Assembly (NCBI GenBank): GCA_951812955.1
Contig: OX638340.1
Span: forward strand, 480,001-544,000
Direction of reading: 5' to 3'
DNA from: an uncultured Gemmatimonadota bacterium
GTDB lineage: Bacteria; JAAXHH01
Length of the DNA: 64,000 nt
Shown one piece after another: positions 20,977 to 51,673 of this stretch (within the stretch, counting starts at the first letter, position 1; each line of letters opens with the position of its first letter). Position numbers and translations under genes: made by a program. The notes beneath the pieces are model-generated. The model was not told where the DNA came from. It searched no databases and worked only from the letters and a program-made list of their open reading frames with translations.

Positions 20977-21051
20977 TCGGGGCGGGGAGATTTGAACTCC
21001 CGACCTCCTGCTCCCGAAGCAGGCGCGCTGACCGGGCTGCGCTACGCCCCG
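20977..21051 (-). tRNA. tRNA-Pro (anticodon CGG)
   Basis: The minus-strand reverse complement CGGGGCGTAGCGCAGCCCGGTCAGCGCGCCTGCTTCGGGAGCAGGAGGTCGGGAGTTCAAATCTCCCCGCCCCGA folds as a cloverleaf. The anticodon loop is UUCGGGA, there is a GTTCAAATC T-arm, and there is no encoded CCA. Confidence 0.8.
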
Positions 21052-21099: not shown

Positions 21100-21173
21100 T
21101 CGGGGCGACTGGATTTGAACCAGCGACCACCAGCCCCCCATGCTGGTGCGCTACCTGACTGCGCTACGCCCCG
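21100..21173 (-). tRNA. tRNA-Pro (anticodon GGG)
   Basis: The reverse complement is CGGGGCGTAGCGCAGTCAGGTAGCGCACCAGCATGGGGGGCTGGTGGTCGCTGGTTCAAATCCAGTCGCCCCGA. The anticodon loop is AUGGGGG. Confidence 0.75.
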
Positions 21174-28948: not shown

Positions 28949-30931
28949 CTACCAGCCGTCCACGATATGGCCCGCGCCCGGAAACCAGGCCGCGTCCACC
29001 AGAAAGGTCAGAAAGACGCCGAGGACATAGCCCGCGAGAATGCCAATAAACAGGGGTTGTGCCTTGCGGTACAGCGATACGCCGCCGAGACGCAGGATCA
29101 CCGTCTTGATCAGCCAGACGATCAGAATGGAAAAGAAAGCCATGTCGGCCGCGTAGGTGGTCACGATCCCGAATCCCACGGGATGGAGGGGCCAGAAATG
29201 CAGCCGGTGATGGGCCCAGATCAGGAATCCCGAGATCAAAATCCCGTTCAACACCATGGTCAGCTGAGGTTGTGTCATGGCCTGAGGATTGGTCAGGAAG
29301 GTCTCCAACTGGGCCCAGTATCCGCTCGCGCCGGACTGAAAACCGCCGGCCTGGAGCTGGGACGCGCCCATGTCATACCCCAGGTACAGCGTGTACACGA
29401 TGGCCGTCATGAATCCGATGAAGAGTGAAAGGGCAATGGCGCCGAAAACGCCCCGGCCCACGCCGCCCATGACGTCCCCCACCTTGGCGGCGTGCGCCAT
29501 CGAACACATCCCGAGCGTCCGCCAGTTGCGCGTAAAGGTCTGGCAGAGCCACATCCCCGTGATCGTGCGGGCATTGATGTGCTCCGACCCGACGAACCGG
29601 AACGTGATCTCGTTGGCGCTGTTGTACGGCAGGTCCAGGGACGCCAGGCCGGTCTCGGCCACTACGCGGGTCACGCCGATGTACAGAACCAGCAGCACGA
29701 ACATCATGAGCATCACGACCCAGAGCGTCATGCCCGCGCTCCACAGGAGGAAAACCATGTAAAGCGAACCGCCGGCGAAAGATAGGACGGCCGTGCGATA
29801 GGAAAAGAACTCCCGTGTATCATCGATTTCCGGCGCTTTGCCGAATGCCTTCCGAAACACGTCACGGATATGCCTGCGTGCCATCCACAGACCGAACAGC
29901 ACGAAAATGAAAAAGCCGGACAGATGTTGAAAGTGCATCATCTCGAGAGGACCGGGGACGCCGACCCGCGTCATCACGCCCTGTTGAACGATGCGGATGA
30001 GATAGAACAACCAGACGCTGAGCAGCACCTCCACCCTCGTGAAGTACGCCACCCCGATCAGCAGGAAATTCAGGCGGACCTGGATCGGGTGGAAGGCTTC
30101 ATACAGGGTCAGGGGAAAGGCGTGCCCCGCGCCGAAAGGGATGGCGGGGAACAGATCGAAGAAGCTGAACATATTCCAGGTCATGATAAACAGCGTGATG
30201 CCGAACCCCCACCAGAACAGGCGCACGCGGGCAATCCTCGGGAACAGGGCCGTTTCTTCGGCCCCGTCGACCAGCGTCAATGGCACCTGGGCTAGCGGGA
30301 AGGTCAGCCGTTCGTGTTCCACCCACTGCTTCCGCAGGATGACCATGATAGACGCGCCGACCAGGAAGAGGGCGATGTAGAATGTTATCCACCAGAACAT
30401 GGGCACCCACCAGATTTGCCATCGGATGGTTGTTCCCGAATACACGCCTTCATAGAATTGGTTCAGACCGCCCAGGTTGTCCCGCACGACCAGCCAGGAA
30501 GGAAGGTAGTCGAGGAAAAGTTCCGCCCAGCGGTTTTCGGGGTTGGCGTAGTAGAAAGGACCGCTGATGATCGAGACCGCGTAATTGCTGAAGGCCCATC
30601 CGGGGATGGCGGACGCCGTGAAGACCAGGAAGAAGATCACGATCAGCTCCTGCCGGCTGAATGGACGGCCGTAACCCGCCTTTTTCAATACCGGGTTGAC
30701 CAGGAGTACCATCAGCAGGAAGGGCAGCAGCGCGGCGACGGGCAGGTGGGTGACCGTGATGAAGGATCCGCGCGTGACGAATTCGGAGGAGAGCGACCAG
30801 AGCGTCAGTAGGACGGTGAAGACGCATCCTATGGCCACGGCCCGTAGGGTAAGGCCGGCGGAAACGGGTTGCTTTACAGGCGGAGGCACGGTGGCCTGTC
30901 GGCCGGTCTGGGGCGATGAGACAGTGGGCAT
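28949..30931 (-). CDS. Large polytopic membrane protein of unknown function, 660 aa. Paralog of 1..1770.
   Basis: At least 12 predicted TM segments. It shares conserved blocks with the partial gene at the window start. Confidence 0.6.
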   Translation of the reverse strand: MPTVSSPQTGRQATVPPPVKQPVSAGLTLRAVAIGCVFTVLLTLWSLSSEFVTRGSFITVTHLPVAALLPFLLMVLLVNPVLKKAGYGRPFSRQELIVIFFLVFTASAIPGWAFSNYAVSIISGPFYYANPENRWAELFLDYLPSWLVVRDNLGGLNQFYEGVYSGTTIRWQIWWVPMFWWITFYIALFLVGASIMVILRKQWVEHERLTFPLAQVPLTLVDGAEETALFPRIARVRLFWWGFGITLFIMTWNMFSFFDLFPAIPFGAGHAFPLTLYEAFHPIQVRLNFLLIGVAYFTRVEVLLSVWLFYLIRIVQQGVMTRVGVPGPLEMMHFQHLSGFFIFVLFGLWMARRHIRDVFRKAFGKAPEIDDTREFFSYRTAVLSFAGGSLYMVFLLWSAGMTLWVVMLMMFVLLVLYIGVTRVVAETGLASLDLPYNSANEITFRFVGSEHINARTITGMWLCQTFTRNWRTLGMCSMAHAAKVGDVMGGVGRGVFGAIALSLFIGFMTAIVYTLYLGYDMGASQLQAGGFQSGASGYWAQLETFLTNPQAMTQPQLTMVLNGILISGFLIWAHHRLHFWPLHPVGFGIVTTYAADMAFFSILIVWLIKTVILRLGGVSLYRKAQPLFIGILAGYVLGVFLTFLVDAAWFPGAGHIVDGW

Positions 30932-31050: not shown

Positions 31051-31881
31051 TCAACGGTTCTCAACACAGTTCCTGAGCTTTTCCAGACCCTTTTGAGCCG
31101 TGGTTACCGGTCCTTCGGCCCAGTACGCCGGATTGAACAGTTCCAGTGAAAGCATGCCCCGGTAATCCTGCTGTTCCAGGCTGGCCACGATCTCGTCCCA
31201 GGGCGCTTCGCCGTCGCCCGGATAGACCCTGTGCTCGTCCTCGATATCCACGTGGGCGGGTACCGCTGGATAGTCGTTCACGTGGACCAGACCCAGCCGG
31301 CCGGGACCGAGGTAATCCATCCCCCGCTGGTGTCCGCTTCCCTTGTACATGTGGAAGATGTCGGTCAGTAGCCTGGCATCTCGCACGCCGCTTTCCGCGG
31401 CGACGAGAAGGGCTTCGCCGACCGTGCCCAGCGTGCGGGCTATTCCCCAGAATTCCAGCAGGGGTTTCGGGGAGAAATCCGAAACGGCATCCGAAAGTTC
31501 GGCAAATCTCCTGGCGACAGAAAACAGGTCGACCTCCCGGTCGTGGATCCCCTTCGGGGCCGTGGCTACATAGGGGCATTCCAGGTCCTGGGCCATCTTG
31601 AAGCACCGTCTCGCTTCTTCAAGCCCTCTGGCATGGCGGTCGGTTTCGGGAACCGCCCATTCGAAAAATGCGATCAGGTTCACGATACGGATCCCGCGGC
31701 TGTCCGCGCGTTCGCGAATCTGTTCCACCGTTCCGCCTTCTTCGACCCAGGCATCGATTTCCTCTGCCCAGGGTTCAATGCCGTCATACCCGGCATCGGC
31801 CGCGATATCCACGTATTCCAGTACGGAAACTCCGGGCGACCGGATCGTGCTGGTATTGAGGCAGTAGTCAAAACGTCCCAT
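31051..31881 (-). CDS. Sugar phosphate isomerase/epimerase (xylose-isomerase-like TIM barrel)
   Basis: A 276-aa protein with an AP-endo-2 TIM-barrel pattern (IEPW...E, HVNDY). It lies directly upstream of, and on the same strand as, the membrane protein. Confidence 0.75.
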   Translation of the reverse strand: MGRFDYCLNTSTIRSPGVSVLEYVDIAADAGYDGIEPWAEEIDAWVEEGGTVEQIRERADSRGIRIVNLIAFFEWAVPETDRHARGLEEARRCFKMAQDLECPYVATAPKGIHDREVDLFSVARRFAELSDAVSDFSPKPLLEFWGIARTLGTVGEALLVAAESGVRDARLLTDIFHMYKGSGHQRGMDYLGPGRLGLVHVNDYPAVPAHVDIEDEHRVYPGDGEAPWDEIVASLEQQDYRGMLSLELFNPAYWAEGPVTTAQKGLEKLRNCVENR

Positions 31882-32070
31882 TTGTCACATCCCTTCTGCT
31901 GGGCCGCCGTACCGCCCGTACAGGATCCGGACGGCGCGGTTGTATGGCCATTTTTAAGGCATGCTTCAAGAGTAATAACCAATCATAGATGGCTTTACAA
32001 AATTCTGTACTTTTTTAAACGGTTTCGCCTATATTGTAAACCGCTTAAAAGAAAAACGCCATCCATAGTG

Positions 32071-33009
32071 ATGTCAGGAGCGTACGTGCGGGACTTTTCA
32101 AGCTTCTCGAGATCAATTCTGCTCTTCTGTCTTCTCCTGATTCCCCAGGCTGTTTCGGGTCAGACGAGCGTGACGGACGTCACCGGGACCACGTTTACCG
32201 TGGGTAGCACCCCGCAGAGAATCGTGTCCTTAATCCCGAGTAACACCGAACTGCTTTTCGCTGTCGGGGCGGGAAGTTCGGTCGTCGGGGTGACGAATTA
32301 CTGCGACTATCCCCCCGAAGCTCGGAAAATCGAGAAAGTCGGCGACCTCACGGCCATGAGCCTGGAAAAAGTCGTCGCCCTCGACCCTGAACTGGTACTG
32401 GCCACGAAGGGAAACTCCAAGGAACTGGTATTCAGTCTGAGGGCGCTGGGTGTCCGGGTGTTCGTCCTCGACCCACAGACAATCGAGGAAGTACTCGATG
32501 CCATTGGCAAGGTGGGTGCGCTCACAGGGCGTTCCGAGGCTTCGCGCGCGCTTGTCGACAGCTATAGACAAAGACTGGCCCATGTCGCGGACCGGATTGA
32601 CGAGCTAACGGAAAGCGAACGTCCCACGGTATTCGTCGGCAGTCCGTTCAGGGACGAAAACTGGACGCCAGGTCCCGAAACGTATACCTCGGCGGTAATC
32701 CGCCGGGCCGGTGGCCGGAACATTGCCGACGACCTGGCGCCACGTACCTGGGCGGTTTACAACCTGGAGAACATCGTCTCGAAGGACCCGCAGGTCCTGC
32801 TGTCCACCCTGGGCGTGGGACAGGACCCCTCGGAAACGAGGACGAGGTTCCTTGAGCGGGCGAAGTCGCTCGAGGGCTGGCGCGATCTGGACGCCATTCG
32901 CAACGAACGCGTCGTGCTGATTCCAGAGAACTGGCTGCTTCGGCCGGCGCCCAGGCTCTTCCAGGCGATCGAAACGCTGGCGAGTGCCCTGCATCCGAAC
33001 CTGTTCTGA
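32071..33009 (+). CDS. Periplasmic binding protein, PF01497 (BtuF/FecB-like) class, ABC transporter substrate-binding
   Basis: The start is at the ATG at 32071 (MSGAYVRDFSSFSRSILLFCLLLIPQAVSG, a signal peptide). The motif RIVSLIPSNTELLFAVGAGSSVVGVT is typical of cobalamin/siderophore/heme binding proteins. The ORF track's 31543 start overlaps the upstream gene on the other strand. Confidence 0.75.
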   Translation: MSGAYVRDFSSFSRSILLFCLLLIPQAVSGQTSVTDVTGTTFTVGSTPQRIVSLIPSNTELLFAVGAGSSVVGVTNYCDYPPEARKIEKVGDLTAMSLEKVVALDPELVLATKGNSKELVFSLRALGVRVFVLDPQTIEEVLDAIGKVGALTGRSEASRALVDSYRQRLAHVADRIDELTESERPTVFVGSPFRDENWTPGPETYTSAVIRRAGGRNIADDLAPRTWAVYNLENIVSKDPQVLLSTLGVGQDPSETRTRFLERAKSLEGWRDLDAIRNERVVLIPENWLLRPAPRLFQAIETLASALHPNLF

Positions 33010-33060
33010 AGGCGTCCACGAGTAAACGCTAACGATACCTGATACACCTGGCGATCCTTT

Positions 33061-35253
33061 ATGCCTCTTCTAAGCAAAATACCTAACGAGCTGTACAGCC
33101 TGTTACGGACCAGATTCCCGGCAGACGCGGACAAGGCGGAGCTGATTTTCGCCTGCAGAACGGATCTGGCGCCGGACGGCCGCATCCAGGAATCGATGTT
33201 GCTGGTCACCCGGCGTCACCTGGCGGTAGCCACGCTGTCCGACGGGCAGTGGTCGCTGACGCACTCCTTGCCCCTGGTGGACATCACTGGGCTGAACGTC
33301 GAGCCGCTCGTCGGCGCGAGCGCGCTAATGGCCAAGGTGGACGGCAGGGAGATCAGGCTGCTCCGGTATTCCCATGCGGTGGCCCAGGACATGTCGGACG
33401 CTGTCGAGTCCCTGTTGCATCTGATCGGTCCCGATGGCAGTCCGGACCATACGGAGCCCGTTATAGAAGACCCGGTTCCGGACTGGTCGAGCCGCGAGGC
33501 TCACCTGCGCACGTTCCGGCGCCTGTGGGCATTCTGCCTGCCGCACTGGCGCACGCTGGTCATCGCCATGGCCGTCACCATCGTGGCATCGGCCATCGAC
33601 CTGTTGCCCCCGTACCTGACCATGATCCTCGTGGACCAGGTCCTGGTGGACATGAGCACCTACATGTATCTTCCGCTGATCGTCGCGCTGCTGGCGGTGT
33701 CCCGTATCGTCCATACCGGAGTGACCGTCGTGAGCGGCAGAATGCTGGCCGTGCTGGGTGACCGGCTGGCCTTCGACGCGCGGTCGGAGTTGCTGAACGT
33801 CCTGCAACTGCTGCCTCTCAAGTACTACGATATGCAGCAGACGGGCGGACTCATGGCCCGTATCGCACGGGACGCCAAGTCGATCCACTACTTCTGGATC
33901 GATTTCGCGCCGCAGGTGATCCAGCAGGGACTGCTGGTAATCGGCATGACCGCGGTGCTTTTCTACCTGAACTGGGAGCTGGCCTTCCTCGTCCTGATCC
34001 CCATTCCCGCCATCATCTTCGCATCGATACACATCAAGCGCTACCTGATGTGGTTTTACGGAAGGTCCTGGGACAGCTGGGCGACCTTTTTCGAACGGGT
34101 CAACGACGCGCTGGCCGGCATCCGGGTCGTGAAGATCTTCGCCCAGGAGAAACGGCAAAGCCGGGACATGCATCTCGAGAACGAGAAGGTGTTTACGGCC
34201 GAACGCAACATACACGTCCGATCACGCACGGTGCGCCCCCTCCTCGCCTTCATCGTGTCCGTGGGCGGGCTCCTCGTCTGGTGGTATGGCGGGAGACAGG
34301 TTCAATCGGCGGAAATGACCATCGGCATGCTGATGGCCTTCTTCCTCTACCTGAGCATGTTCTACAATCCCGTGCAGCAACTGACCAGCATGGCCGACTG
34401 GATTCCCGAGATGATGACGGCCATAACCCGCACCTTCGAGGTCATCGACAGTCCCATCGAGGACTATACGCCAGGCGAGACCGTCGACGTGCCCCGTTTC
34501 GAGGGACGCCTGGAGCTGCAGGACGTCAACTTCGGCTACGTGGCGCACCAGCCCGTGCTAAAAGGGATCAACCTGCACGTCGAACCGGGCGAGATGATCG
34601 GGCTCGTGGGACACTCGGGCGCGGGCAAGTCCACCCTCATCAAGCTGATGTGCCGCTTCTACGACGTCGATGGGGGCGGGATACTCATCGATGGGATCGA
34701 CGTTCGACGGATGGACCTGATGCAGCTGCGCAGCCAGATCGGGTACGTGGAGCAGGATCCCTTTCTGTTCTCCGGGTCCGTGACCGACAATATCCGCTTC
34801 GGCAACCGGGAAGCGTCCCGGGAGGAGATCATCGAGGCCGCCATCAACGCGAACGCCCACGAATTCATCGTCAAGCTGCCTGATGGTTACGATACGCCCG
34901 TAGGCGAACGGGGCGGCAGACTGTCCGGCGGTGAGCGTCAGCGCGTCGCGATCGCACGGGCCATCCTGCACGATCCGCGGATCCTGATTCTCGACGAACC
35001 TACGTCGGCCCTCGACCTGGAAACGGAGAAGAAGATCCAGGAAGCCCTGGGACGGCTCATGGAGGGCCGCACGACGCTCGCCATAGCCCACCGGCTGTCC
35101 ACCCTGAGAGACGCCGACCGGCTGCTCGTACTCAAGAACGGAGAGCCGGTGGAACTGGGTACCCACGAAGAGCTGCTGAACCGGCAAGGCGAGTACTACC
35201 GGCTGGTCCAGTTGCACACCAACGTCTCCAGCATCGTGGGCGTGGAGGGGTAA
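33061..35253 (+). CDS. ABC transporter fused permease/ATPase (type I exporter fold) with an extra N-terminal soluble domain of about 150 aa
   Basis: It has six-helix TMD and NBD motifs: Walker A GHSGAGKST, signature LSGGERQR, Walker B ILILDE and an H-loop. Residues 1 to about 150 precede the first TM helix and are hydrophilic. Confidence 0.85.
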   Translation: MPLLSKIPNELYSLLRTRFPADADKAELIFACRTDLAPDGRIQESMLLVTRRHLAVATLSDGQWSLTHSLPLVDITGLNVEPLVGASALMAKVDGREIRLLRYSHAVAQDMSDAVESLLHLIGPDGSPDHTEPVIEDPVPDWSSREAHLRTFRRLWAFCLPHWRTLVIAMAVTIVASAIDLLPPYLTMILVDQVLVDMSTYMYLPLIVALLAVSRIVHTGVTVVSGRMLAVLGDRLAFDARSELLNVLQLLPLKYYDMQQTGGLMARIARDAKSIHYFWIDFAPQVIQQGLLVIGMTAVLFYLNWELAFLVLIPIPAIIFASIHIKRYLMWFYGRSWDSWATFFERVNDALAGIRVVKIFAQEKRQSRDMHLENEKVFTAERNIHVRSRTVRPLLAFIVSVGGLLVWWYGGRQVQSAEMTIGMLMAFFLYLSMFYNPVQQLTSMADWIPEMMTAITRTFEVIDSPIEDYTPGETVDVPRFEGRLELQDVNFGYVAHQPVLKGINLHVEPGEMIGLVGHSGAGKSTLIKLMCRFYDVDGGGILIDGIDVRRMDLMQLRSQIGYVEQDPFLFSGSVTDNIRFGNREASREEIIEAAINANAHEFIVKLPDGYDTPVGERGGRLSGGERQRVAIARAILHDPRILILDEPTSALDLETEKKIQEALGRLMEGRTTLAIAHRLSTLRDADRLLVLKNGEPVELGTHEELLNRQGEYYRLVQLHTNVSSIVGVEG

Positions 35254-35256
35254 GCC

Positions 35257-35736
35257 TTGTCCTTTCTCGATCCGGCCGCCATACGCCTCGAACGGCGCGA
35301 AGAACAGCCGCCAACGTTGTCCATCGCGGGCGACCTGTTCTTCAACGTCAAAATCCGTCAGGCCTTTCCGCTCTCCTTCGAAAGCCGGTACATTACTTTC
35401 TTTGATCAGGAAGATGAATATCTGGGGATCGTGGCCGACCCGGAAGCCTGCGACGAGGATACCTGTCGGATTATCCGTGATGAAATCGAATGGCGCTATT
35501 TCCGGCCGAGGATAGAGCGCGTCCTGGAAATGGAAGGCCGGGGTGGCACGTCCATATTCTCGGTGGAGACGGACCGGGGCGCGGTAAAGATCCCGATGCG
35601 GGACCTCAGGGAAGGCATGATGGAGTTGTCGCCTGGCCGAATCCTGATCACGGACGAGCACGGCAACCGGTACGAGATCCCCGACCTCGACCGGCTGGAT
35701 CGACGGAGCCGCCGCCTGATCCGCCGCCTGATCTGA
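35257..35736 (+). CDS. DUF1854-like small cytoplasmic protein coupled to the ABC exporter gene
   Basis: A 159-aa protein whose start codon is 4 nt after the ABC gene stop. The family call is from memory of DUF1854 proteins, which follow ABC ATPase/permease genes. Confidence 0.45.
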   Translation: MSFLDPAAIRLERREEQPPTLSIAGDLFFNVKIRQAFPLSFESRYITFFDQEDEYLGIVADPEACDEDTCRIIRDEIEWRYFRPRIERVLEMEGRGGTSIFSVETDRGAVKIPMRDLREGMMELSPGRILITDEHGNRYEIPDLDRLDRRSRRLIRRLI

Positions 35737-35740
35737 CGAC

Positions 35741-36160
35741 TTAACCCATCAGAATCGGCACAATCTTCGCATAGGCCGTCTTGAACCCGAGCACGGCCAG
35801 GTAGATCCCAACGCCCAGCAGGACCATCAGAATGGTGCCGATCGCGACCAGGAGCGGTTTGCTGCTGGCGAACCGTAGCTTGAGCCGTTCCACCTTGGCG
35901 TAGATATCGGGGTACTTCTGTTCCAGGCGGGACAGTATGCGTCTGGCGAAGGCGTTGCGCGTGGACAGGATCGTCAGCCCGATGACGATGAACAGCACGC
36001 CCTGCAACAGGGGCAGGAGAAGGCCCAGGACCCCAAGGACGAGAAAGGTCCATCCGAGAACGGACTGGGCCATGCGAAAGAGTAGTTTCTGTTCTATCTG
36101 CTTGAATCCAATCTCTTGACGGTATATCCAGTCAGTTAACGGTACGCCCAGTCGCAGCAA
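35741..36160 (-). CDS. Small membrane protein, PGPGW/YbaN(DUF454)-like
   Basis: A 139-aa protein with two hydrophobic helices. The motif LGW..LVLGVLGLLLPLLQGVLFIVIGLTILS resembles the PGPGW-family pattern, with PLLQG in place of PGPGW. Confidence 0.45.
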   Translation of the reverse strand: MLRLGVPLTDWIYRQEIGFKQIEQKLLFRMAQSVLGWTFLVLGVLGLLLPLLQGVLFIVIGLTILSTRNAFARRILSRLEQKYPDIYAKVERLKLRFASSKPLLVAIGTILMVLLGVGIYLAVLGFKTAYAKIVPILMG

Positions 36161-36162
36161 GA

Positions 36163-36483
36163 TCAGTCAAGAAAAGCGAGGGCTTCCCGCATTTCTTCCA
36201 GGTCCTTGGCGTCGCCCTGGCGTTCCGCAACGACAATACCCCGTTCATAACATCTGCGGGCTTCTTCCTCCTGGTCCAGCTGTTCGTAAACTCGACCGGC
36301 CTGGTGATAGCCCACCGTATAGTCCGGCGACGCATCCATGAGCCGTTCCAGGATCCCCACCGCTTCTTCGAGCCGGTTCGAACTCACATATTCCAGCGCG
36401 ATCGCATACTGAATAAAGGGATCGCCGGGATCCTTCCGGGCGAGCAGTTCAAGCTGTTCGAGCCGTTCATTCATGCCGCACAT
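36163..36483 (-). CDS. Tetratricopeptide-repeat protein
   Basis: A 106-aa protein with TPR-like helical hairpins: AIALEY...EEAVGILERL and GYHQAGRVYEQLDQEEEARRCYERGI. Confidence 0.6.
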   Translation of the reverse strand: MCGMNERLEQLELLARKDPGDPFIQYAIALEYVSSNRLEEAVGILERLMDASPDYTVGYHQAGRVYEQLDQEEEARRCYERGIVVAERQGDAKDLEEMREALAFLD

Positions 36484-38516: not shown

Positions 38517-38589
38517 GCCCCCGTAGCTCAGAGGATAGAGCAGCGGTTTCCTAAACCGTTGGTCGGGTGTTCGACTCACCCCGGGGGTA
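38517..38589 (+). tRNA. tRNA-Arg (anticodon CCU)
   Basis: GCCCCCGTAGCTCAGAGGATAGAGCAGCGGTTTCCTAAACCGTTGGTCGGGTGTTCGACTCACCCCGGGGGTA folds as a cloverleaf. The anticodon loop is UUCCUAA and there is a GTTCGACTC T-arm. The first acceptor pair is G1-U72, which is unusual, so the ends may be off by a base. Confidence 0.7.
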
Positions 38590-40001: not shown

Positions 40002-40074
40002 GCCACGATAGCTCAGCTGGTAGAGCAATTCATTCGTAATGAATAGGTCGTCGGTTCGAGTCCGACTCGTGGCT
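40002..40074 (+). tRNA. tRNA-Thr (anticodon CGU)
   Basis: GCCACGATAGCTCAGCTGGTAGAGCAATTCATTCGTAATGAATAGGTCGTCGGTTCGAGTCCGACTCGTGGCT has a perfect 7-bp acceptor stem, U8 A9, and a GTTCGAGTC T-arm. The anticodon loop is UUCGUAA. Confidence 0.8.
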
Positions 40075-41190: not shown

Positions 41191-44100
41191 CTAACACTCA
41201 GCCACGGCTCGTGGATTCAACCCCTCCAACAACGTGTCGATCGTCTGACTGATGGCGGTCTCAGACTGCAAGGTCTCGACCGGAATCGACACGTGCAATC
41301 CTGCCTCGATCCTGTTTCGTAACTCCACGGCCATGAGGGAATCCACGCCCAGGCTGCGCCAGGTCTGCCCGGTCTCCACGCTCCCTGGGTCCACTTCCAA
41401 GATCCGGCTGATCGCATCGGTCACGAATTCCTCGATGTAGTCGCGCATTATGTCAGGGGATAGCGCGCTCAGATCGGCTTTCGATAGGGGTGGAATCGCC
41501 CGTGTCGCCTGCGCTCCGCGAACATCCGGTGGCAGGAACCGGGCAAGAAGCGTATCTGCTTTTGGCTCAGTCGTGGGGATTACGCCGACGCGGTGGACAT
41601 CGCGACGGAGTATTCGATCAAGCAGCGCGCCTGCCTCATCGGGCGGGATCGATCGCAGGCCCTGCCGCCTCATACGATCGACGGCTCGTTCGTCGGTCAT
41701 CATGCCCGTATCTTCCCAGGGCCCCCAGTTTACTGTCGTCACCGGCAGACCCTCCTGACTCCTGAGGTCCGCCAGGCCGTCGAGAAACGCGTTCGCAGCG
41801 GCGTAGGATGCCTGTCCGGCCGTACCGAGCAGGGAGGCCACCGACGAAAAGAGGACGAAGAGGTCCAGTTCGCGGTCGCGGGTAATCGCATGCAGGTTCC
41901 ACGCGCCGACCGTCTTGGGTTCGAGTACCCGGCGGAACCTTTCCGCATTCTGGGTGAGCAAAATGCCATCGTCCAGCACGCCGGCCCCGTGGAAGACGCC
42001 CCTGACCGGTCCGTGCTCGATTTCCAGGCCTGCCAAGAGACCTTCCATCGCATCACGCTCGGTCGCATCGGCCTGAACGTACTTCACTTTGCCGTTGGGA
42101 TCACTTTCCAGTGACGTATCCACATGATGTCTTCGCCCCGTCACGACGACCAGGCCGGCTCCCCGGTCGAGTAGCCAACCCGTCAGGAAGCGGCCGATCC
42201 CACCCGCGCCGCCCGTGACGAGGTAGGTTCCGCCCGGACGAATGATCGGATCATCTTCTCCCAGGGCAACAGGGACGGACGCACCGTCGTCTACGAGCAC
42301 CAGTTTGCCCATGTGCCGCGCCTGCGACATGAACCGGAAGGCATCCCGCGCCTCGGCAAGCGGGTATGCATGGTACGGCAGGGGACGTATGCTGCCATCC
42401 GCAGCCAAGTCGGCGATTTTCTGTAGCATGGCGCCCGCACGGTCCGGCTGTTCCTCGATGAACTGTGCAAGATCGATGGGATGATAGGATTTGTTGCGGT
42501 CGAACCGGTTGAGATCGATGAGTCCATGGTTCAGCACATCGGTTTTGCCGATCTCAATGAAACGTCCGTGGGGCGCAAGTACGGCCAGAGAAGCCATCAT
42601 GGCGGGACCAGACAGTGTGTTCAGGACGATATCCATTCCCTTCCCGTCCGTCTTCTCAATGATCTCTTCTGCGAAGTCCAGGGAACGGGAATCCATCACA
42701 TGCGAAACGCCTATTTCCCGCAGAAAGGCTCGTTTTTCATCAGATCCGGCCGTGGCAAACACCTCGGCCTCTGCCTGACGGGCGAGTTGAAGAGCGGCCA
42801 GCCCCACCCCTCCTGTCGCGTTGTGTACAAGAACGCGGTCGCCGGCGGATATTCCGCCACGTACCACGAGCCCGAGGTATGCCGTCAGGAAGGCCACGGG
42901 CAGCGTAGCGGCTTCTTCGATACCCAGGCTATCCGGCTTCCGGACGACCAGGGCGGCCTTCGCGGTCACGTAACCGGCCATGGCCATCGGCACCATGCCC
43001 ATGACCAAATCACCGACTTCCACAGAGTCAGTCCGGCTTCCGCGTGCAACCACCTCGCCGACGCATTCCCAACCGAAGGAAGGTGGACGCGGCAATGAGG
43101 CTCGCAGCATGCCGAGGGCGGTAAGTACGTCCCTGAAGTTCAGCGCGGTTGCCTGCATGCGGATGACGACCTCGTCCGGTGCTGGTTCACGCTCCCGCTC
43201 CGACACAAAGTGGAGATCGTCAATCGAACCGGGCGTCGACTGTGTAAGTCTGTAACTGGTATTAAAATATGAAGATGCGGAAACACGCTTCGCTTTGGTG
43301 TTTGACAGGTCTAACGGAACGAGACGACGGGTATACAGCTCGGTCTCCCGTACCGCGATCTCGCCGGTCAGTTTGTCCGCGGCCACGATACAGGCGAGAT
43401 GTTCCAAATCGATCTCGTCGGTTCCGGCTGGAAGGTCGATCATCGCACAGTTCAACTCGGGGTGCTCCTGCGCGGCGACCCGTCCGCATCCCCAGATCGT
43501 CCCGAGTTCCGGCTTCGACCGGTCGCCATCAACCACGGACTGGGCACCCGCCGTAATCAACCTCAGGCGGTACGACAGATCGGGACTGTCCAGCACCGCC
43601 CTGACCATTTCAAAGGATTCCAGCGCGGGGCCGGTATGTCGGTTCGACCGCCTGGCGCCTTTTCCAGTCCAGATTCCCACGACGCCGACCGGTTCCCCGG
43701 ATTCGGATCTCACTGAGCCCAGTCTGCCGGCGAGGGCGTCGGCCGGGCTTGCCTTGCACTCACTGGACGCATCGATGAATTCACTCTTCCCGCCGCGTCG
43801 AGCCAGGGCATTAGCCAGGCCGGTTCCGAGTCGCGGGTCCTCCGTAATCACGTACCAGTGCGATGTTGTGCCGGGTTCCACCTGGTCTTCCGGGATTGGC
43901 ATGGCCATCCAGGCTTCCCGGTAGATTCCCTGTGGGTTATCAAGGCCATGCCGGCCTGCGCCTGTCCTGAACAGACCCCCTCCTGCCCGGAACAGGGACA
44001 CGCCTTCCAGTTGTACCACAGGAAGGCCCTTGTCATCTACGAGGTACACATCGGCCAGCAGCCCACCGTCACTTGATTTCTCCCTCAGTCTGGCGTATGC

Positions 44101-47100
44101 AACCAGGACATCATGCTCGTCCGGAAGCTTCTGCAGCACAACGGTTTCCACGCTGACGGGCAGATGCGGATCGTCTTCAGGAACGAGCATCAGCAGGACC
44201 TGCAGACCGGCATCCAGAACACCGGGGTGCAGGCGGTAGGGATTCTGATCATCATCTCGTACGGCCAGGACGGCCAGGACTTCCCGTTCGGAGTACACAA
44301 GCTCGTCAATCTGGCGGAAGGACGGGCCGTATTGAAACCCCAGAGCTGCTGCGCGTTCGTAGAATCGACCGCTCGCGACCCGGCGGTCGCAACGGGATCT
44401 GACGGCTTCCAGTTCTACGCGTTCTGTTATCTCATCTACGCGGGTTCGTTCGGCTAGCATGTTTGACAGCCAGCTCGAACCAGTCTCCTGGGATTCCGGC
44501 CTGGAGGAAAGCGTATACCGGTTCTGCCTGCGTACAACCTGGACGAGATGTGCGCCGATATCTGGCAATAACAGGGGGTTCAGGAGTTCAAGGTCCCGAA
44601 ATGCGACTGGAGCATCCTCCTCGTCGAGGGTCTCGAAGAGCATTTCTATCTGCCCTGCGAGCGGCATGATCGATCGGTCCAGTACGGTGTGATCCGCCAG
44701 CATAGGATGGGAGTCCAGGCTAATCGGCCGTTCCCACACGAAGGTTTCGGGGTCCACGGACGATTCGATGCCGGTACCGATCAATGGGTGCGGGTACTGG
44801 CTTCGCGGGCCACCCGGTTGATTCGTCATCCCGTCCAACCAGAAACGTTCCTTCTGCCAGGGATAGGTCGGCAACGGAACAGGAGTTCTCGGTGGATCCA
44901 CCAGGTGTTGCCATCGTATATCGTGGCCGTGGACGTAACATTTCGCCATGGCTTCGAGCAGGACGTCCCAGGTTCCGCGGTCTCGTCGTAGCGAGGCAAC
45001 CGCGTGCCCCGTCCAATTCAGATGAGCCAGGTTTTCATATATGATCGTCGAAAGCACGGGATGAGGGCCGATCTGGACGAACAGCGCCTCTCCGCCATCT
45101 GGAATCGCTTCGAATGAACGGCTGAACAGGACGGGACTCCGGATATTTCGCCACCAGTGATCCGCGTCGAGGTCCATTCCTTCAACCCGCGTACCCGTGA
45201 CCGTCGAGAACAGAGGTACGTGGGATTTCGAGGGAGACAGTCCATTCAGGGACGCCAGGAAATCGTCGCGGATCCCGTCCATTTGCCTGCTGTGATAGGC
45301 GATATCCGTATGTAGTTTGCGGCAGAAAATCCGTCGTCCATCCAACTCCGCCTGTAACCGGTCGATAGCCGCGGTCTCCCCGGATATGGTCACGGAAACC
45401 GGACTGTTGACCGCAGCAACGGACAGGCTGTCTCCGAAGGGTTCTATGGCCTCTTCCGCCTCGTCCGGCGACAGGCCCACCGCAAGCATCTCGCCCCGTC
45501 CCTGCCACGCCTTCTGCAGCCTGCTGCGCTGGTATATGATGCGAACGCCCTCTTCCAGGGAAAGGGCGCCCGCGACACAGGCTCCGGTGATTTCCCCGAC
45601 GCTGTGGCCAATGACGAACCGCGGCTCAATACCAAAGGACCGCCATAGGGCCGCCAGGGCCCACTGCAGCGCCATGTTGGCGGGCTGAGCGATCTCGACG
45701 CCGGTGATGCGCTCCCCGGCTGCACCGCGCCACATCTCATCCTTAATGGAATTTCCCGCAGCTGCCGAGTACAGGCGGTCGAACTCGTCCAGGGCTTCGC
45801 TGAACGGGGGCGCCGAATTATAGAGCGCCCGCCCCATACCGAACCACTGCGGCCCCATGCCGGTGAAGACGAAGACGACAGGTGTGGGATGCGATCCGAC
45901 ACGTGCCGTCTCGAACCGATCTGGGATGCCGCCTGCACGAAACGTCTCAAGGCCCTGCGCCGCCCCCCCGGCCTCCTCGAACACCAGGCCAAGGCGGTGG
46001 TCCAGATGGGACCTGTACAGGGCGAGCGCGGCCGCCAGATCGTCGGGTGGCGTATCGGGTTGGCTTCGGAGCAGAGATACTGTATCCGACGCCTTTTGCT
46101 TCAGCGCGGCGGCGTTATGGGCGGACAGGACCAGGAGCCGGGTAGCGCGCTGATCGTCCGTACGGCACGGGTCGGACGTGCCGGGTGAACCGCCCGATTC
46201 GACTTCCGCCGGGCCAGGCGGGGATCCCAGCACCACGTGGGCGTTGGCACCGCCGAATCCGAAGGAATTAACCCCGGCGTAACAGGATACGGGGATGTTT
46301 TCCGGTTCGGTGACCACCTTTAGCCCGAGCGCTTCAAAGGGTATATCGGGGTTTGGCTGATCGAAATGCAGGGAGGGCGGCAGGACGCCATGTTTCAGGG
46401 ACAGCGCTGTTTTGATGAGTCCGGCGACGCCGGCCGCCGCCTCGGCATGGCCGATATTGGTCTTCACCGACCCGATCAGGCAACCGGTGGATCCCGTGGC
46501 ACGGCCGATGGCCATGGCTTCCACGGGGTCGCCAGTGGGCGTTCCCGTACCGTGAGCTTCTACGAAGGCCAGGCGTTGCGCGTCCACGCCACCGGCCCGG
46601 GCGGCCGACTCGATGACGGTTTGCTGAGCGTTCTGGTCAGGTACGGTAAGCCCGCGCCCTTCCTGGCCACGCCCGTCCTGGTTTATCGCGGAGCCGAGAA
46701 TGACCGCGTAGATCGGATCGTCGTCCTCCACCGCGTCGGACAGGCGTTTCAGCACGACGATTCCCGCGCCGTCGCTCCGTCCGTACCCGCTCGCCCCCTG
46801 GTCGAAGGCCCTGCAGCGCCCATCCGGCGACAACATTTGCGCCTGTTGAAAGCCGCGCGTCGTCTGCGGAGTCAGGAGGAGATTCGCGCCACCGGCAAGT
46901 GCGGCCGAACAGATACCGGCCTGTATATCCCTGCAGGCCAGGTGAACGGCGGTCAGCGAAGAAGAACAGGCCGTATCCACCGCGATACTCGGGCCCTTCA
47001 GATCCAGGAAGTAGGAGATCCGGTTCGCCGCGATACTCAGCGTGCCACCCGTATTGGTGTGCATGCCGACGGCTGACGGCGCCGCGTACCGCTGCAGGTC

Positions 47101-47478
47101 CCAGTATTCGTCCAGGAAGATCCCCATGTACACGCCAACGGGCCGGCCTTCAAGCTTCGCCGGCGGAATCTGCGCGTCTTCCAGCGCTTCCCAGGCAAGT
47201 TCGAGCAGGACGCGCTGCTGGGGATCGATGTGGCGGGCTTCCCGTGGCGAGATATTGAAAAACGCTGCGTCGAATCGGTCGATCTCGTCGACGAACCCGC
47301 CATGGGCGGGATAGTCTTTATGGCCCGTCCACGGTTCCCACAGCGATTTGCGCTCATCCGGCACGGCGCGTATGGCGTCACCGCCGTTCAGGACGAATTC
47401 CCAGAAAGATCGGGGCGAAGATATCTCCCCGGGAAAACGGCAGGCGATACCTGTTATGGCAATGGGTTCACCGGACAT
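41191..47478 (-). CDS. Type I polyketide synthase, single fully reducing module KS-AT-DH-ER-KR-ACP (FAS-like)
   Basis: A 2095-aa protein. The KS active site is DTACSSSL. The AT motif is GHSVGE. The DH motif is HxxxDxxxxP (HPMLADHTVLDRSIMP). The ER NADPH motif is HNATGGVG. The KR motif is TGGAGGIG. The ACP motif is LGVDSLMAVELRN. Confidence 0.9.
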   Translation of the reverse strand: MSGEPIAITGIACRFPGEISSPRSFWEFVLNGGDAIRAVPDERKSLWEPWTGHKDYPAHGGFVDEIDRFDAAFFNISPREARHIDPQQRVLLELAWEALEDAQIPPAKLEGRPVGVYMGIFLDEYWDLQRYAAPSAVGMHTNTGGTLSIAANRISYFLDLKGPSIAVDTACSSSLTAVHLACRDIQAGICSAALAGGANLLLTPQTTRGFQQAQMLSPDGRCRAFDQGASGYGRSDGAGIVVLKRLSDAVEDDDPIYAVILGSAINQDGRGQEGRGLTVPDQNAQQTVIESAARAGGVDAQRLAFVEAHGTGTPTGDPVEAMAIGRATGSTGCLIGSVKTNIGHAEAAAGVAGLIKTALSLKHGVLPPSLHFDQPNPDIPFEALGLKVVTEPENIPVSCYAGVNSFGFGGANAHVVLGSPPGPAEVESGGSPGTSDPCRTDDQRATRLLVLSAHNAAALKQKASDTVSLLRSQPDTPPDDLAAALALYRSHLDHRLGLVFEEAGGAAQGLETFRAGGIPDRFETARVGSHPTPVVFVFTGMGPQWFGMGRALYNSAPPFSEALDEFDRLYSAAAGNSIKDEMWRGAAGERITGVEIAQPANMALQWALAALWRSFGIEPRFVIGHSVGEITGACVAGALSLEEGVRIIYQRSRLQKAWQGRGEMLAVGLSPDEAEEAIEPFGDSLSVAAVNSPVSVTISGETAAIDRLQAELDGRRIFCRKLHTDIAYHSRQMDGIRDDFLASLNGLSPSKSHVPLFSTVTGTRVEGMDLDADHWWRNIRSPVLFSRSFEAIPDGGEALFVQIGPHPVLSTIIYENLAHLNWTGHAVASLRRDRGTWDVLLEAMAKCYVHGHDIRWQHLVDPPRTPVPLPTYPWQKERFWLDGMTNQPGGPRSQYPHPLIGTGIESSVDPETFVWERPISLDSHPMLADHTVLDRSIMPLAGQIEMLFETLDEEDAPVAFRDLELLNPLLLPDIGAHLVQVVRRQNRYTLSSRPESQETGSSWLSNMLAERTRVDEITERVELEAVRSRCDRRVASGRFYERAAALGFQYGPSFRQIDELVYSEREVLAVLAVRDDDQNPYRLHPGVLDAGLQVLLMLVPEDDPHLPVSVETVVLQKLPDEHDVLVAYARLREKSSDGGLLADVYLVDDKGLPVVQLEGVSLFRAGGGLFRTGAGRHGLDNPQGIYREAWMAMPIPEDQVEPGTTSHWYVITEDPRLGTGLANALARRGGKSEFIDASSECKASPADALAGRLGSVRSESGEPVGVVGIWTGKGARRSNRHTGPALESFEMVRAVLDSPDLSYRLRLITAGAQSVVDGDRSKPELGTIWGCGRVAAQEHPELNCAMIDLPAGTDEIDLEHLACIVAADKLTGEIAVRETELYTRRLVPLDLSNTKAKRVSASSYFNTSYRLTQSTPGSIDDLHFVSEREREPAPDEVVIRMQATALNFRDVLTALGMLRASLPRPPSFGWECVGEVVARGSRTDSVEVGDLVMGMVPMAMAGYVTAKAALVVRKPDSLGIEEAATLPVAFLTAYLGLVVRGGISAGDRVLVHNATGGVGLAALQLARQAEAEVFATAGSDEKRAFLREIGVSHVMDSRSLDFAEEIIEKTDGKGMDIVLNTLSGPAMMASLAVLAPHGRFIEIGKTDVLNHGLIDLNRFDRNKSYHPIDLAQFIEEQPDRAGAMLQKIADLAADGSIRPLPYHAYPLAEARDAFRFMSQARHMGKLVLVDDGASVPVALGEDDPIIRPGGTYLVTGGAGGIGRFLTGWLLDRGAGLVVVTGRRHHVDTSLESDPNGKVKYVQADATERDAMEGLLAGLEIEHGPVRGVFHGAGVLDDGILLTQNAERFRRVLEPKTVGAWNLHAITRDRELDLFVLFSSVASLLGTAGQASYAAANAFLDGLADLRSQEGLPVTTVNWGPWEDTGMMTDERAVDRMRRQGLRSIPPDEAGALLDRILRRDVHRVGVIPTTEPKADTLLARFLPPDVRGAQATRAIPPLSKADLSALSPDIMRDYIEEFVTDAISRILEVDPGSVETGQTWRSLGVDSLMAVELRNRIEAGLHVSIPVETLQSETAISQTIDTLLEGLNPRAVAEC

Positions 47479-50445: not shown

Positions 50446-50473
50446 AGGAACAAGGACCGGGCCTTGAGATGAA

Positions 50474-50704
50474 TCAGCCGTCTACATTGGCCTGGAGATA
50501 CTTGATCGCGTCACTAACCGTGACGATCTTTTCGGCGTCCTCGTCGGGAATCTCGAGATCGAATTCCTCCTCGAGCGCCATGACGAGTTCGACCGTATCG
50601 AGCGAGTCGGCGCCCAGGTCGTCGGTAAACGAGGCATTGTCGGTAACCTGGTCACCGTCAACGCCAAGTTGCTCGGCGATGATCTCCTTTACGCGATCTT
50701 CCAT
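50474..50704 (-). CDS. acpP: Acyl carrier protein
   Basis: [15 protein letters not shown]...[20 protein letters not shown] carries the DSLD phosphopantetheine site. The start is at the ATG at 50702-50704, preceded by AGGAGG. Confidence 0.9.
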
Positions 50705-50789
50705 CTTCTTTCCTCCTGTCCGTATGAATTGTTGGCTTTCTTGACTACATGTTGAAATCAAATTCCCGCTTCAGTTGCGAATGATCTAT

Positions 50790-50861
50790 TTGTTTGCTCG
50801 ACTGTTTGCTCAATTGTGAGCTCGACGGTGAGCTCAATTGTCTGCTCAACTGTCTGCTCGT
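50790..50861. repeat. Six tandem 12-nt repeats in the fabG-acpP intergenic region
   Basis: The units are tgtttgctcgac, tgtttgctcaat, tgtgagctcgac, ggtgagctcaat, tgtctgctcaac and tgtctgctcgtt, contiguous, with a core TGnnnGCTCnac. Confidence 0.85.
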
Positions 50862-50887
50862 TCGGTTTGCTGTAGATTGTTTTGCAC

Positions 50888-51631: not shown

Positions 51632-51673
51632 ATCAGGAACTCCTGTGGATAACTGCAGTTTAGCGCTCTGTCA

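What the first reader, a model, noticed from the sequence alone, without database searches (positions are those of the whole stretch)
32071..35736. Siderophore/B12-class binding protein paired with an exporter-fold ABC protein bearing a novel N-terminal domain and a DUF1854-like partner
Three plus-strand genes are closely spaced, 52 nt and 4 nt apart. The first is a PF01497-type periplasmic binding protein. That class normally feeds type II ABC importers such as BtuCD or FepDGC. The second is a fused TMD-NBD ABC protein of the type I exporter fold. The third is a small DUF1854-like cytosolic protein.

Exporter-fold ABC proteins that import metal chelates are known, for example IrtAB and YbtPQ. 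Here the ABC protein carries a different hydrophilic N-terminal domain of about 150 aa (MPLLSKIPNELYSLL...LLRYSH). It has no obvious match to the IrtA siderophore-interaction domain.

The promoter region upstream of the binding protein gene is AT-rich. It contains a near-perfect inverted repeat, TTAAACGGTTT-n9-AAACCGCTTAA, at about 32015-32051. That could be an operator.

Together these suggest an uncharacterised exporter-fold uptake system for a metal-chelate or cofactor-like ligand.
Basis: partly seen in the sequence, partly recalled or inferred. Interest (0 to 1): 0.6.

Follow-up and report, generated by a model that had tools for sequence, protein, structure and literature searches.

The report
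BtuF-like binding protein wired to exporter-type ABC
A Gemmatimonadota-like bacterium has a conserved three-gene operon in which a vitamin-B12-type periplasmic binding protein sits next to an exporter-fold ABC transporter and its DUF1854 partner instead of its usual importer. This suggests, but does not prove, an unusual uptake system.

Summary
The three plus-strand genes are real. They are a secreted PF01497/BtuF-like binding protein (32071-33009), a 730-aa TMD-NBD ABC protein (33061-35253) and a true DUF1854 protein (35257-35736).

The "novel" N-terminal domain is a divergent bacterial PH-like domain. It is not unique. It marks the whole family of DUF1854-partnered ABC exporters (at least 1,100 representative clusters, many phyla). 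That pair is already known from Price et al. and from NCBIfam, where it is named "cyanophycin metabolism-associated".

The new part is the binding protein. It precedes the ABC gene in all 16 related loci with enough sequence, plus the window, with ABC identity down to 65% and at least three different upstream contexts. None of 75 other DUF1854 loci has it. The binding protein's nearest outside relatives (33-42% identity) sit in ordinary SBP-FecCD-ATPase operons. No FecCD gene occurs in the window or in the clade's loci. So the type II translocator seems to have been swapped for a type IV one.

Import is plausible (precedents IrtAB/FecB, YbtPQ) but unproven. The SBP keeps both BtuC-docking glutamates, and the ABC loops offer no conserved basic partner. 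There is no B12 riboswitch. The inverted repeat is statistically real but not conserved. Verdict: partly supported, moderately interesting.

The parts
31994..32045 (+). Conserved promoter-like footprint upstream of the SBP gene. It contains TTTACA (31994-31999), GTAC (32007-32010), a T-run, and an invariant TATATT (32030-32035) followed by GTA.ACC.
   Evidence: An alignment of the upstream regions of 7 relatives has invariant columns clustered here. The simple sigma-70 scan found nothing, so the promoter assignment is inferred from conservation only.
32013..32050 (.). Inverted repeat TTTTAAACGGTTT / AAACCGCTTAAAA. Arms are 13 nt, 12 of 13 complementary, with a 12-nt spacer that holds the TATATT element.
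   Evidence: Found. It is rarer than chance (8 of 2000 shuffles). It is weakened in the nearest relative L009 (9-nt arms, 8 of 9) and absent from L001, L013, L003 and L091.
32071..33009 (+). Periplasmic class III (PF01497, BtuF-like) substrate-binding protein, 312 aa. It has an N-terminal Sec-type signal peptide (about residues 1-30, ...AVSG|QTS, read by eye). Glu99 and Glu233 align with the BtuF docking residues Glu72 and Glu202.
33061..33435 (+). Cytoplasmic PH-like N-terminal domain of the ABC protein (residues 1-125), followed by a low-confidence linker up to TM1.
33556..34374 (+). Six-helix ABC_membrane transmembrane domain (residues 166-438) of type IV / ABCB exporter fold.
   Evidence: PF00664, E 1.8e-34. 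The closest solved chains are ABCB4/B11/B1, TM288, Sav1866, TmrAB and BmrA.
34558..35253 (+). Nucleotide-binding domain (residues 500-730) with intact Walker A (GHSGAGKS, 517), signature (LSGG, 621), Walker B plus catalytic Glu (ILILDE, 641) and H-loop (AHR, 676).
   Evidence: This is the only ABC NBD in the 64-kb window, so a homodimer is inferred.
35257..35736 (+). DUF1854 protein, 159 aa, with a TTG start 3 nt after the ABC stop. A GGAGGGG Shine-Dalgarno-like run lies inside the end of the ABC gene, which suggests translational coupling.

Best explanation
This is a three-gene operon. A secreted BtuF-like class III binding protein has become the periplasmic partner of a homodimeric type IV (exporter-fold) ABC transporter from the PH-domain/DUF1854 family. 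The ABC+DUF1854 pair occupies the operon position where the SBP's closest relatives carry a FecCD permease and a separate ATPase.

The most likely working model is SBP-dependent uptake. The SBP captures a corrinoid-, tetrapyrrole- or metal-chelate-like ligand in the periplasm. It docks on the two-fold symmetric periplasmic face of the ABC homodimer and hands the ligand over for ATP-driven inward transport, as proposed for FecB with IrtAB. The cytoplasmic PH-like domain and DUF1854 are family-wide accessory modules (regulatory or coupling) and are not specific to import.

Shown: the gene content, the folds, the conservation of the triplet, the clade restriction of the SBP, the absence of FecCD nearby, and the FecCD context of outgroup SBPs. 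Inferred: physical SBP-ABC interaction, direction of transport, and ligand class.
For: (1) The operon is isolated on the + strand and the ABC and DUF1854 genes look translationally coupled. No terminator-like site lies in either intergenic gap; the two plus-strand matches in the unit fall inside coding sequence.

(2) The SBP gene directly precedes the PH-ABC gene in all 16 related loci that have enough upstream sequence (L001-3, L005, L009-15, L024, L089-92), as well as in the window. ABC identity goes down to 65% and SBP identity down to 46%. Upstream neighbours differ: AP_endonuc_2 in the window, AhpC-TSA in L005, CrcB in L089 and L090. In L090 the gap is only 3 nt.

(3) None of 75 other DUF1854 loci has such an SBP.

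(4) In a metagenome scan, the SBP's nearest relatives outside the clade (33-42% identity) lie in canonical operons. Of 51 loci with room, 30 have FecCD immediately downstream and 13 more have FecCD elsewhere in the locus. FecCD and ATPase identities were confirmed by Pfam.

(5) No FecCD permease and no second ABC ATPase occurs anywhere in the 64-kb window or in any clade locus (ORF annotation).

(6) The SBP is under constraint: 70-odd invariant columns across the clade, plus a signal peptide.

(7) The ABC protein shows clade-specific changes. The Zn-ribbon between the PH domain and TM1 is lost. Periplasmic loops are altered: K to E at position 306 and F to Q at position 415.

(8) Precedents exist for exporter-fold importers, and for a class III SBP proposed to dock on one (IrtAB/FecB, PMC10553834; YbtPQ and IrtAB papers listed).
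Against: The rest of the family has no SBP. That covers at least 520 genomic loci and 1149 representative clusters. The only functional data for the family, cofitness with cphA-like genes, led to an export proposal.

By sequence the ABC core is an ordinary ABCB-type exporter. No IrtAB, YbtPQ or Rv1819c chain appears among the best 60 PDB matches.

The SBP keeps both glutamates that in BtuF pair with Arg56 of BtuC. The ABC periplasmic loops of the clade contain no conserved Arg or Lys to receive them.

There is no cobalamin riboswitch or other known cis-regulatory RNA upstream. There is no conserved palindromic operator, so nothing ties the operon to B12, iron or heme.

The BtuF B12-contact residues W66 and W85 are not conserved, although Y50 and W196 are.

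All members are uncultured MAGs, so there are no experimental data.
Confidence: 0.45

Rival explanations
1. The ABC+DUF1854 pair is an exporter, like the rest of its family. The SBP is an 'orphan' class III binding protein that feeds a FecCD/BtuCD-type importer encoded elsewhere in the genome. Adjacency would then reflect shared ancestry or co-regulation, not a physical partnership.
For: Both canonical permease-docking glutamates are invariant in the clade's SBPs, and the ABC loops lack a conserved basic partner. The family outside this clade never has an SBP and has been proposed to export. The ABC core resembles classical exporters. SBP-ABC spacing is variable (3 to about 130 nt). From general knowledge: orphan class III SBPs that share a distant translocator are common, for example FhuD1/FhuD2 in S. 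aureus.
Against: The SBP-ABC junction survives in at least three different upstream contexts and down to 46% SBP identity. In L090 the gap is 3 nt. The SBP sits exactly where its outgroup relatives carry FecCD-ATPase. No FecCD lies within the 64-kb window or within about 6-8 kb in any clade locus.
Confidence: 0.25
2. The ABC protein exports a small cofactor- or chelate-like molecule. The SBP is its periplasmic acceptor or escort, or a ligand sensor that gates the pump. The SBP would then work with the ABC protein, but in the outward direction.
For: This reading shares the gene-linkage evidence of the best explanation. It is also compatible with the exporter-like core and the export proposal for the family. 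FecB of M. tuberculosis has been proposed to take part in siderophore export as well as import (PMC10553834).
Against: No characterised case is known to me of a class III SBP acting as the dedicated acceptor of a type IV exporter. The SBP's closest relatives are all in import operons. Nothing in the neighbourhood encodes synthesis of an exported chelator directly linked to the operon.
Confidence: 0.15
3. The association is incidental: three unrelated genes that merely look like an operon.
For: There are no transcript data. The 51-nt SBP-ABC gap could hold an internal start site.
Against: The ABC-DUF1854 pairing is near-universal. Of 75 other loci, 64 have an ABC directly upstream, and 60 of those carry the same N-domain. 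The SBP linkage is conserved across the clade.
Confidence: 0.05

Closest known systems
DUF1854-partnered ABC exporters. [quoted passage not shown] NCBIfam NF052233 and NF052234 are the 'cyanophycin metabolism-associated' ABC transporter and DUF1854 protein.
   Same: The architecture is the same: an N-terminal PH-like domain, TMD and NBD, immediately followed by a DUF1854 gene.
   Different: Both window proteins score below the NCBIfam equivalog cutoffs (545.7 against 880, and 78.8 against 150). None of the roughly 45 window ORFs scanned against Pfam matches a cyanophycin synthetase-type family. The Zn-ribbon linker is lost. A BtuF-like SBP gene is added upstream, which no other family member examined has.
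BtuF-BtuCD and other class III SBP / FecCD type II importers
   Same: The SBP is PF01497 and its best named PDB relative is BtuF. It has a signal peptide. Both lobe glutamates equivalent to BtuF E72 and E202 are present. Its nearest outgroup relatives lie in SBP-FecCD-ATPase operons.
   Different: No FecCD permease or BtuD-like ATPase is nearby. It falls below the BtuF equivalog cutoff (118.8 against 234). B12-contact residues W66 and W85 are not conserved. There is no cobalamin riboswitch.
Exporter-fold (type IV) importers: IrtAB (with FecB proposed as its SBP), YbtPQ and Rv1819c. Streptomyces CdtABC may also belong here; its architecture is recalled from memory.
   Same: A type IV TMD-NBD protein is linked to uptake-type components. 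A class III SBP has been proposed to dock on such a transporter. These proteins also carry cytoplasmic accessory domains.
   Different: This ABC protein is a homodimer from a single gene, not a heterodimer. It has no FAD-binding SID domain; a PH-like domain plus a separate DUF1854 protein take its place. None of these importers ranks among its best 60 PDB sequence matches. Import has not been demonstrated here.

Membership tests
PF01497 / class III (cluster A) periplasmic binding proteins | Match to the Peripla_BP_2 profile above the gathering score | tested here: met
   112.2 bits against a cutoff of 27.5, covering profile positions 1-233 of 235.
PF01497 / class III (cluster A) periplasmic binding proteins | One conserved Glu on each lobe, used for docking on the permease (BtuF E72 and E202) | tested here: met
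   Glu99 and Glu233 align with them and are invariant in 7 clade SBPs.
BtuF (vitamin B12 SBP, NF002894) | Equivalog score cutoff, B12-contact aromatic residues, and partnership with BtuCD | tested here: not met
   118.8 bits, below the cutoff of 234. Y50 and W196 are kept, but W66 and W85 are replaced. No FecCD/BtuC or BtuD gene lies in the window.
Type IV (ABCB-like exporter-fold) ABC half-transporter | ABC_membrane six-helix TMD fused to an NBD with intact catalytic motifs | tested here: met
   PF00664 and PF00005. Walker A, signature, Walker B plus Glu and H-loop are all present. The nearest PDB chains are ABCB1/4/11, TM288 and Sav1866.
DUF1854 (PF08909) | Profile match above the gathering score, and a gene directly downstream of an ABC exporter | tested here: met
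   113.9 bits against a cutoff of 26.8. The gap to the ABC stop is 3 nt.
NCBIfam NF052233 / NF052234 cyanophycin metabolism-associated ABC transporter and DUF1854 protein | Equivalog score cutoffs | tested here: not met
   545.7 against 880, and 78.8 against 150.
NCBIfam NF052233 / NF052234 cyanophycin metabolism-associated ABC transporter and DUF1854 protein | Neighbouring cyanophycin synthetase-like (cphA/cphA') genes | tested here: not met
   None of the roughly 45 window ORFs scanned by Pfam is cphA-like. The only ATP-grasp protein is a succinyl-CoA ligase beta subunit at 54373-55530.
IrtAB / YbtPQ-type exporter-fold siderophore importers | Heterodimer of two TMD-NBD chains and, for IrtA, an FAD-binding siderophore-interaction domain | tested here: not met
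   There is a single ABC gene. The N-domain is PH-like with no SID/FAD Pfam hit.
IrtAB / YbtPQ-type exporter-fold siderophore importers | Demonstrated inward transport and iron-responsive regulation | not testable with these tools
   Needs transport assays and expression data. No recognisable regulatory element is conserved.
Bacterial PH domains (bPH_3, PF14470) | PH fold (seven-strand sandwich capped by a C-terminal helix) and a profile match | tested here: inconclusive
   The fold criterion is met. The window's own domain has no Pfam hit. 5 of 18 family members hit bPH_3 only weakly, best E 0.0021.

The most novel reading that the evidence does not exclude
A natural translocator swap. In one clade of sponge- and marine-associated Gemmatimonadota/Latescibacterota-labelled bacteria, a BtuF-family binding protein lost its FecCD-ATPase (type II) importer. 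It now delivers its ligand to a homodimeric type IV ABC transporter of the PH-domain/DUF1854 family. This would be the first SBP-dependent importer on that scaffold. It would also be a genetically clean case of a class III SBP serving an exporter-fold transporter.
Probability: 0.4. Interest if true: 0.7.

Novelty: new variant of a known kind. Interest (0 to 1): 0.5.

Why it matters
ABC transporter direction is usually read from the fold. Type I-III folds with SBPs are taken to import, and type IV folds to export. The few exporter-fold importers (IrtAB, YbtPQ, Rv1819c) overturned that rule, but how or whether SBPs serve them is still unsettled.

This operon gives a compact homodimeric system in which the SBP-to-type IV link is written into conserved gene order. 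The ancestral type II partner is visible in sister lineages. If the link is real, it offers a tractable model for SBP docking on a type IV transporter.

It would also give a first functional handle on the widespread but uncharacterised PH-domain/DUF1854 ABC family. If the SBP is merely an orphan, the finding reduces to an ordinary member of a known pair.

Tried and rejected
- Cobalamin riboswitch or any Rfam cis-regulatory RNA upstream of the SBP: none, either at gathering scores over the whole window or at E up to 5 over 31800-33150.
- Sigma-70 consensus scan: no hits in 31700-36300.
- Operator reading of the inverted repeat: rejected as unsupported, because the arms are not complementary in L001, L013, L003 or L091, while the TATATT in the spacer is invariant.
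- Sequence search of the PDB with DUF1854 and with the N-domain: nothing significant.
- Homology between the N-domain and DUF1854: hhalign probability 0.2%.
- Single-sequence word-indexed search with the N-domain: one hit only, which was misleading. The profile search showed a large family.
- First genome scan with the 28-sequence DUF1854 alignment: failed for lack of a conserved stretch. It was repeated with 9 sequences.
- Search for conserved Arg or Lys in the ABC periplasmic loops that could pair with the SBP glutamates: none found.
- Cross-phylum conserved neighbours of the ABC-DUF1854 pair that might reveal a substrate: mostly Poribacteria synteny; only DUF6785 recurs.
Full report
**Observation**

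The region holds three plus-strand ORFs:
- 32071-33009, 312 aa
- 33061-35253, 730 aa
- 35257-35736, 159 aa

They are separated by 51 nt and 3 nt. Minus-strand genes bracket the unit: an AP_endonuc_2 protein at 31051-31881 and a PGPGW membrane protein at 35741-36160.

Pfam assigns PF01497 to the first protein, PF00664+PF00005 to the second and PF08909 (DUF1854) to the third, all far above gathering scores. The DUF1854 TTG start follows the ABC stop by 3 nt, and a GGAGGGG run lies just upstream of it, which suggests translational coupling. No terminator-like site lies in either intergenic gap; the two plus-strand matches in the unit fall inside coding sequence.

The inverted repeat is real. Its arms are 13 nt, 12 of 13 complementary, with a 12-nt spacer. 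It is unlikely by chance: 8 of 2000 shuffles reach it, and the whole window holds only 2 such repeats.

**The binding protein**

By eye it starts with a Sec-type signal peptide (...LLFCLLLIPQAVSG|QTS).
- NCBIfam ranks an archaeal PGF-CTERM SBP model first and BtuF second, both below their cutoffs.
- The closest solved chains are 4m7o, named 'iron-binding protein', and E. coli BtuF at E about 3e-29.
- The alignment to BtuF shows that both lobe glutamates used for docking on BtuC (E72 and E202) are present. They are invariant in seven clade orthologues as Glu99 and Glu233.
- Of the B12-contact aromatic residues, Y50 and W196 are kept but W66 and W85 are not.

So the ligand class is open. It could be a corrinoid, a tetrapyrrole or a metal chelate.

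**The ABC protein**

The core is a standard type IV / ABCB exporter-fold half-transporter with intact catalytic motifs.
- Its best solved relatives are ABCB4/B11/B1, TM288, Sav1866, TmrAB and BmrA. No exporter-fold importer appears in the top 60.
- It is the only ABC NBD in the window, so a homodimer is inferred.

The N-terminal roughly 150 aa have no Pfam hit and no PDB sequence relative.
- An AlphaFold2 model built on 18 family members is confident over residues 30-120. It shows seven strands capped by a C-terminal helix.
- 5 of the 18 family members hit bPH_3 weakly.

The domain is therefore a divergent bacterial PH-like module, not an IrtA-type SID.

**The domain is a family trait**

- ABC proteins that precede DUF1854 genes in unrelated genomes share the N-domain at about 25% identity. 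The conserved motifs are D..PDG and LvG.sAL.
- A profile of the domain finds 1149 representative clusters (576 at E up to 1e-10). The match is always at the N-terminus, in proteins up to about 750-990 aa.
- A scan of species-representative genomes with one DUF1854 peptide pattern found at least 520 loci.
- Among 75 loci outside the window's clade, 64 have an ABC exporter directly upstream of DUF1854. 60 of those hit the N-domain profile; the other four are cut by contig ends. Eight loci, mostly Clostridia, have a second ABC gene downstream. These loci come from Poribacteria, Armatimonadota, Latescibacterota, Clostridia and others.
- Most family members carry a CxxC...CPxC zinc ribbon between the PH domain and TM1. 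The window's clade has lost it.

The ABC-DUF1854 pairing was already noted by Pfam curators and by Price et al. They found cofitness with cphA-like genes in two beta-proteobacteria and proposed export of an amino-acid polymer. NCBIfam now has 'cyanophycin metabolism-associated' models for both proteins, but the window proteins fall below both cutoffs. None of the window ORFs scanned against Pfam matches a cyanophycin synthetase-type family.

**DUF1854**

**What is new: the SBP linkage**

- The SBP gene directly precedes the PH-ABC gene in the window and in all 16 related loci with enough upstream sequence.
- These loci span ABC identities from 97% down to 65% and SBP identities down to 46%.
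- The upstream neighbours differ: AP_endonuc_2 in the window, AhpC-TSA in L005, CrcB in L089 and L090. In L090 the SBP-ABC gap is only 3 nt.
- None of the 75 other DUF1854 loci has such an SBP.

Seen from the SBP side, a metagenome scan with the clade's SBP alignment returned one more triplet locus (L092, 75% identity), one contig too short to judge (L093, 45%), and then a sharp change of context.
- SBPs of 33-42% identity sit in canonical operons. Of 51 loci with room downstream, 30 have a FecCD permease immediately downstream and 13 more have one elsewhere in the locus. A roughly 270-aa ATPase follows. The FecCD and ATPase identities were confirmed by Pfam.
- A FecCD profile built from these loci finds nothing in six-frame translations of the window, in any clade locus, or in any other DUF1854 locus.

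The simplest reading is that, in this clade, a type II translocator was replaced by the type IV PH-ABC/DUF1854 pair next to a retained SBP that is still under constraint.

**Mechanism and rivals**

I favour SBP-dependent uptake through the exporter-fold homodimer (confidence 0.45). Precedents are IrtAB, YbtPQ and Rv1819c, plus the proposal that the class III SBP FecB docks on IrtAB. Streptomyces CdtABC is a characterised siderophore importer. That it is of the exporter-like fused type is my recollection and was not checked.

Evidence against uptake:
- The family at large has no SBP and has been proposed to export.
- The ABC core looks like an ordinary exporter.
- The SBP glutamates have no conserved basic counterpart in the clade's periplasmic loops. 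Positions 306 and 415 became E and Q, and R412 is present in only 2 of 10 sequences.

The rivals are:
- an orphan SBP that serves a FecCD system elsewhere in the genome (0.25);
- an exporter whose SBP is a periplasmic acceptor or sensor (0.15);
- coincidence (0.05).

That is the cheapest decisive test.

**Regulation**

No cobalamin riboswitch or other Rfam element lies upstream. Phylogenetic footprinting of seven upstream regions shows a conserved block, GTACC.TTTT ... CTATATTGTA.ACC, with an invariant TATATT. This looks like a promoter core. An operator function is therefore unsupported, and nothing links the operon to iron, B12 or haem.

**Verdict**

The ABC-DUF1854 pair and its PH-like domain are a known, widespread kind. 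The conserved recruitment of a BtuF-family SBP in place of FecCD-ATPase is a new variant and worth an experiment. Interest is 0.5. The window most likely derives from an uncultured Gemmatimonadota-like bacterium. The nearest locus is MAG 'Gemmatimonadetes bacterium APA_bin_41', whose DUF1854 is 97% identical.

Noticed in passing
window 28949-30931 (-); L075 3110-5374; L068 1457-3700; L069 3-1763; L046, L037 and L039 locus edges: A large DUF6785/DUF6784 membrane protein lies two genes upstream of the SBP in the window. The same family recurs next to PH-ABC/DUF1854 pairs in other phyla. It is directly upstream on the same strand in two Armatimonadota/'Hebobacteria' loci, and within about 4-7 kb in several Poribacteria. 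This may be a functional link.
   Followed up: partly
L007, L008 and most non-clade ABC proteins (alignment A3, columns about 165-190): Family members outside the SBP-linked clade carry a CxxC...CPxC zinc-ribbon between the PH-like domain and TM1, with weak DZR and Zn_ribbon Pfam hits. The window's clade has replaced it with a PDWSSREAH segment.
   Followed up: partly
L038, L057, L062, L064, L071, L083 (Clostridia and Bacillota MAGs): In Firmicutes the arrangement is PH-ABC, then DUF1854, then a second ABC exporter. This suggests a heterodimeric transporter with DUF1854 encoded between its two halves.
   Followed up: no
L028/L036 (OY282374.1) and L039/L051 (OX638352.1); L017 2152-4383 and 5534-7819: Some Poribacteria genomes carry two separate PH-ABC/DUF1854 loci. 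One locus has two tandem PH-ABC genes before a single DUF1854 gene. The family therefore has paralogues within genomes.
   Followed up: no
L006, L016, L019, L023, L047, L061: Some DUF1854 genes, mostly from Armatimonadota and Chthonomonadaceae, stand alone with no ABC exporter within 8 kb.
   Followed up: no
window 12053-14248 (-) and 14984-17038 (-): A TonB-dependent receptor lies close to a PQQ-dependent dehydrogenase, separated from it by a 3-keto-disaccharide hydrolase gene, about 18 kb upstream of the operon. It confirms a diderm envelope. No link to the triplet was seen.
   Followed up: no
window 41191-47478 (-) and 49159-52633 (-): A 2095-aa ORF is syntenic with a multidomain PKS called in relatives. 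It is followed by LplA-like lipoate ligase, RNase III and FabF/FabG/FabD-like genes.
   Followed up: no
window 38517-38589, 40002-40074 (+); 20977-21051, 21100-21173 (-): Four tRNA genes are the only Rfam matches at gathering scores in the window.
   Followed up: no
window 31994-32003 and 32031-32040: A second, wider inverted repeat (TTTACAAAAT / ATATTGTAAA, 27 nt apart) brackets the conserved promoter-like block. It is partly kept in L009 and L011. Its meaning is unknown.
   Followed up: partly
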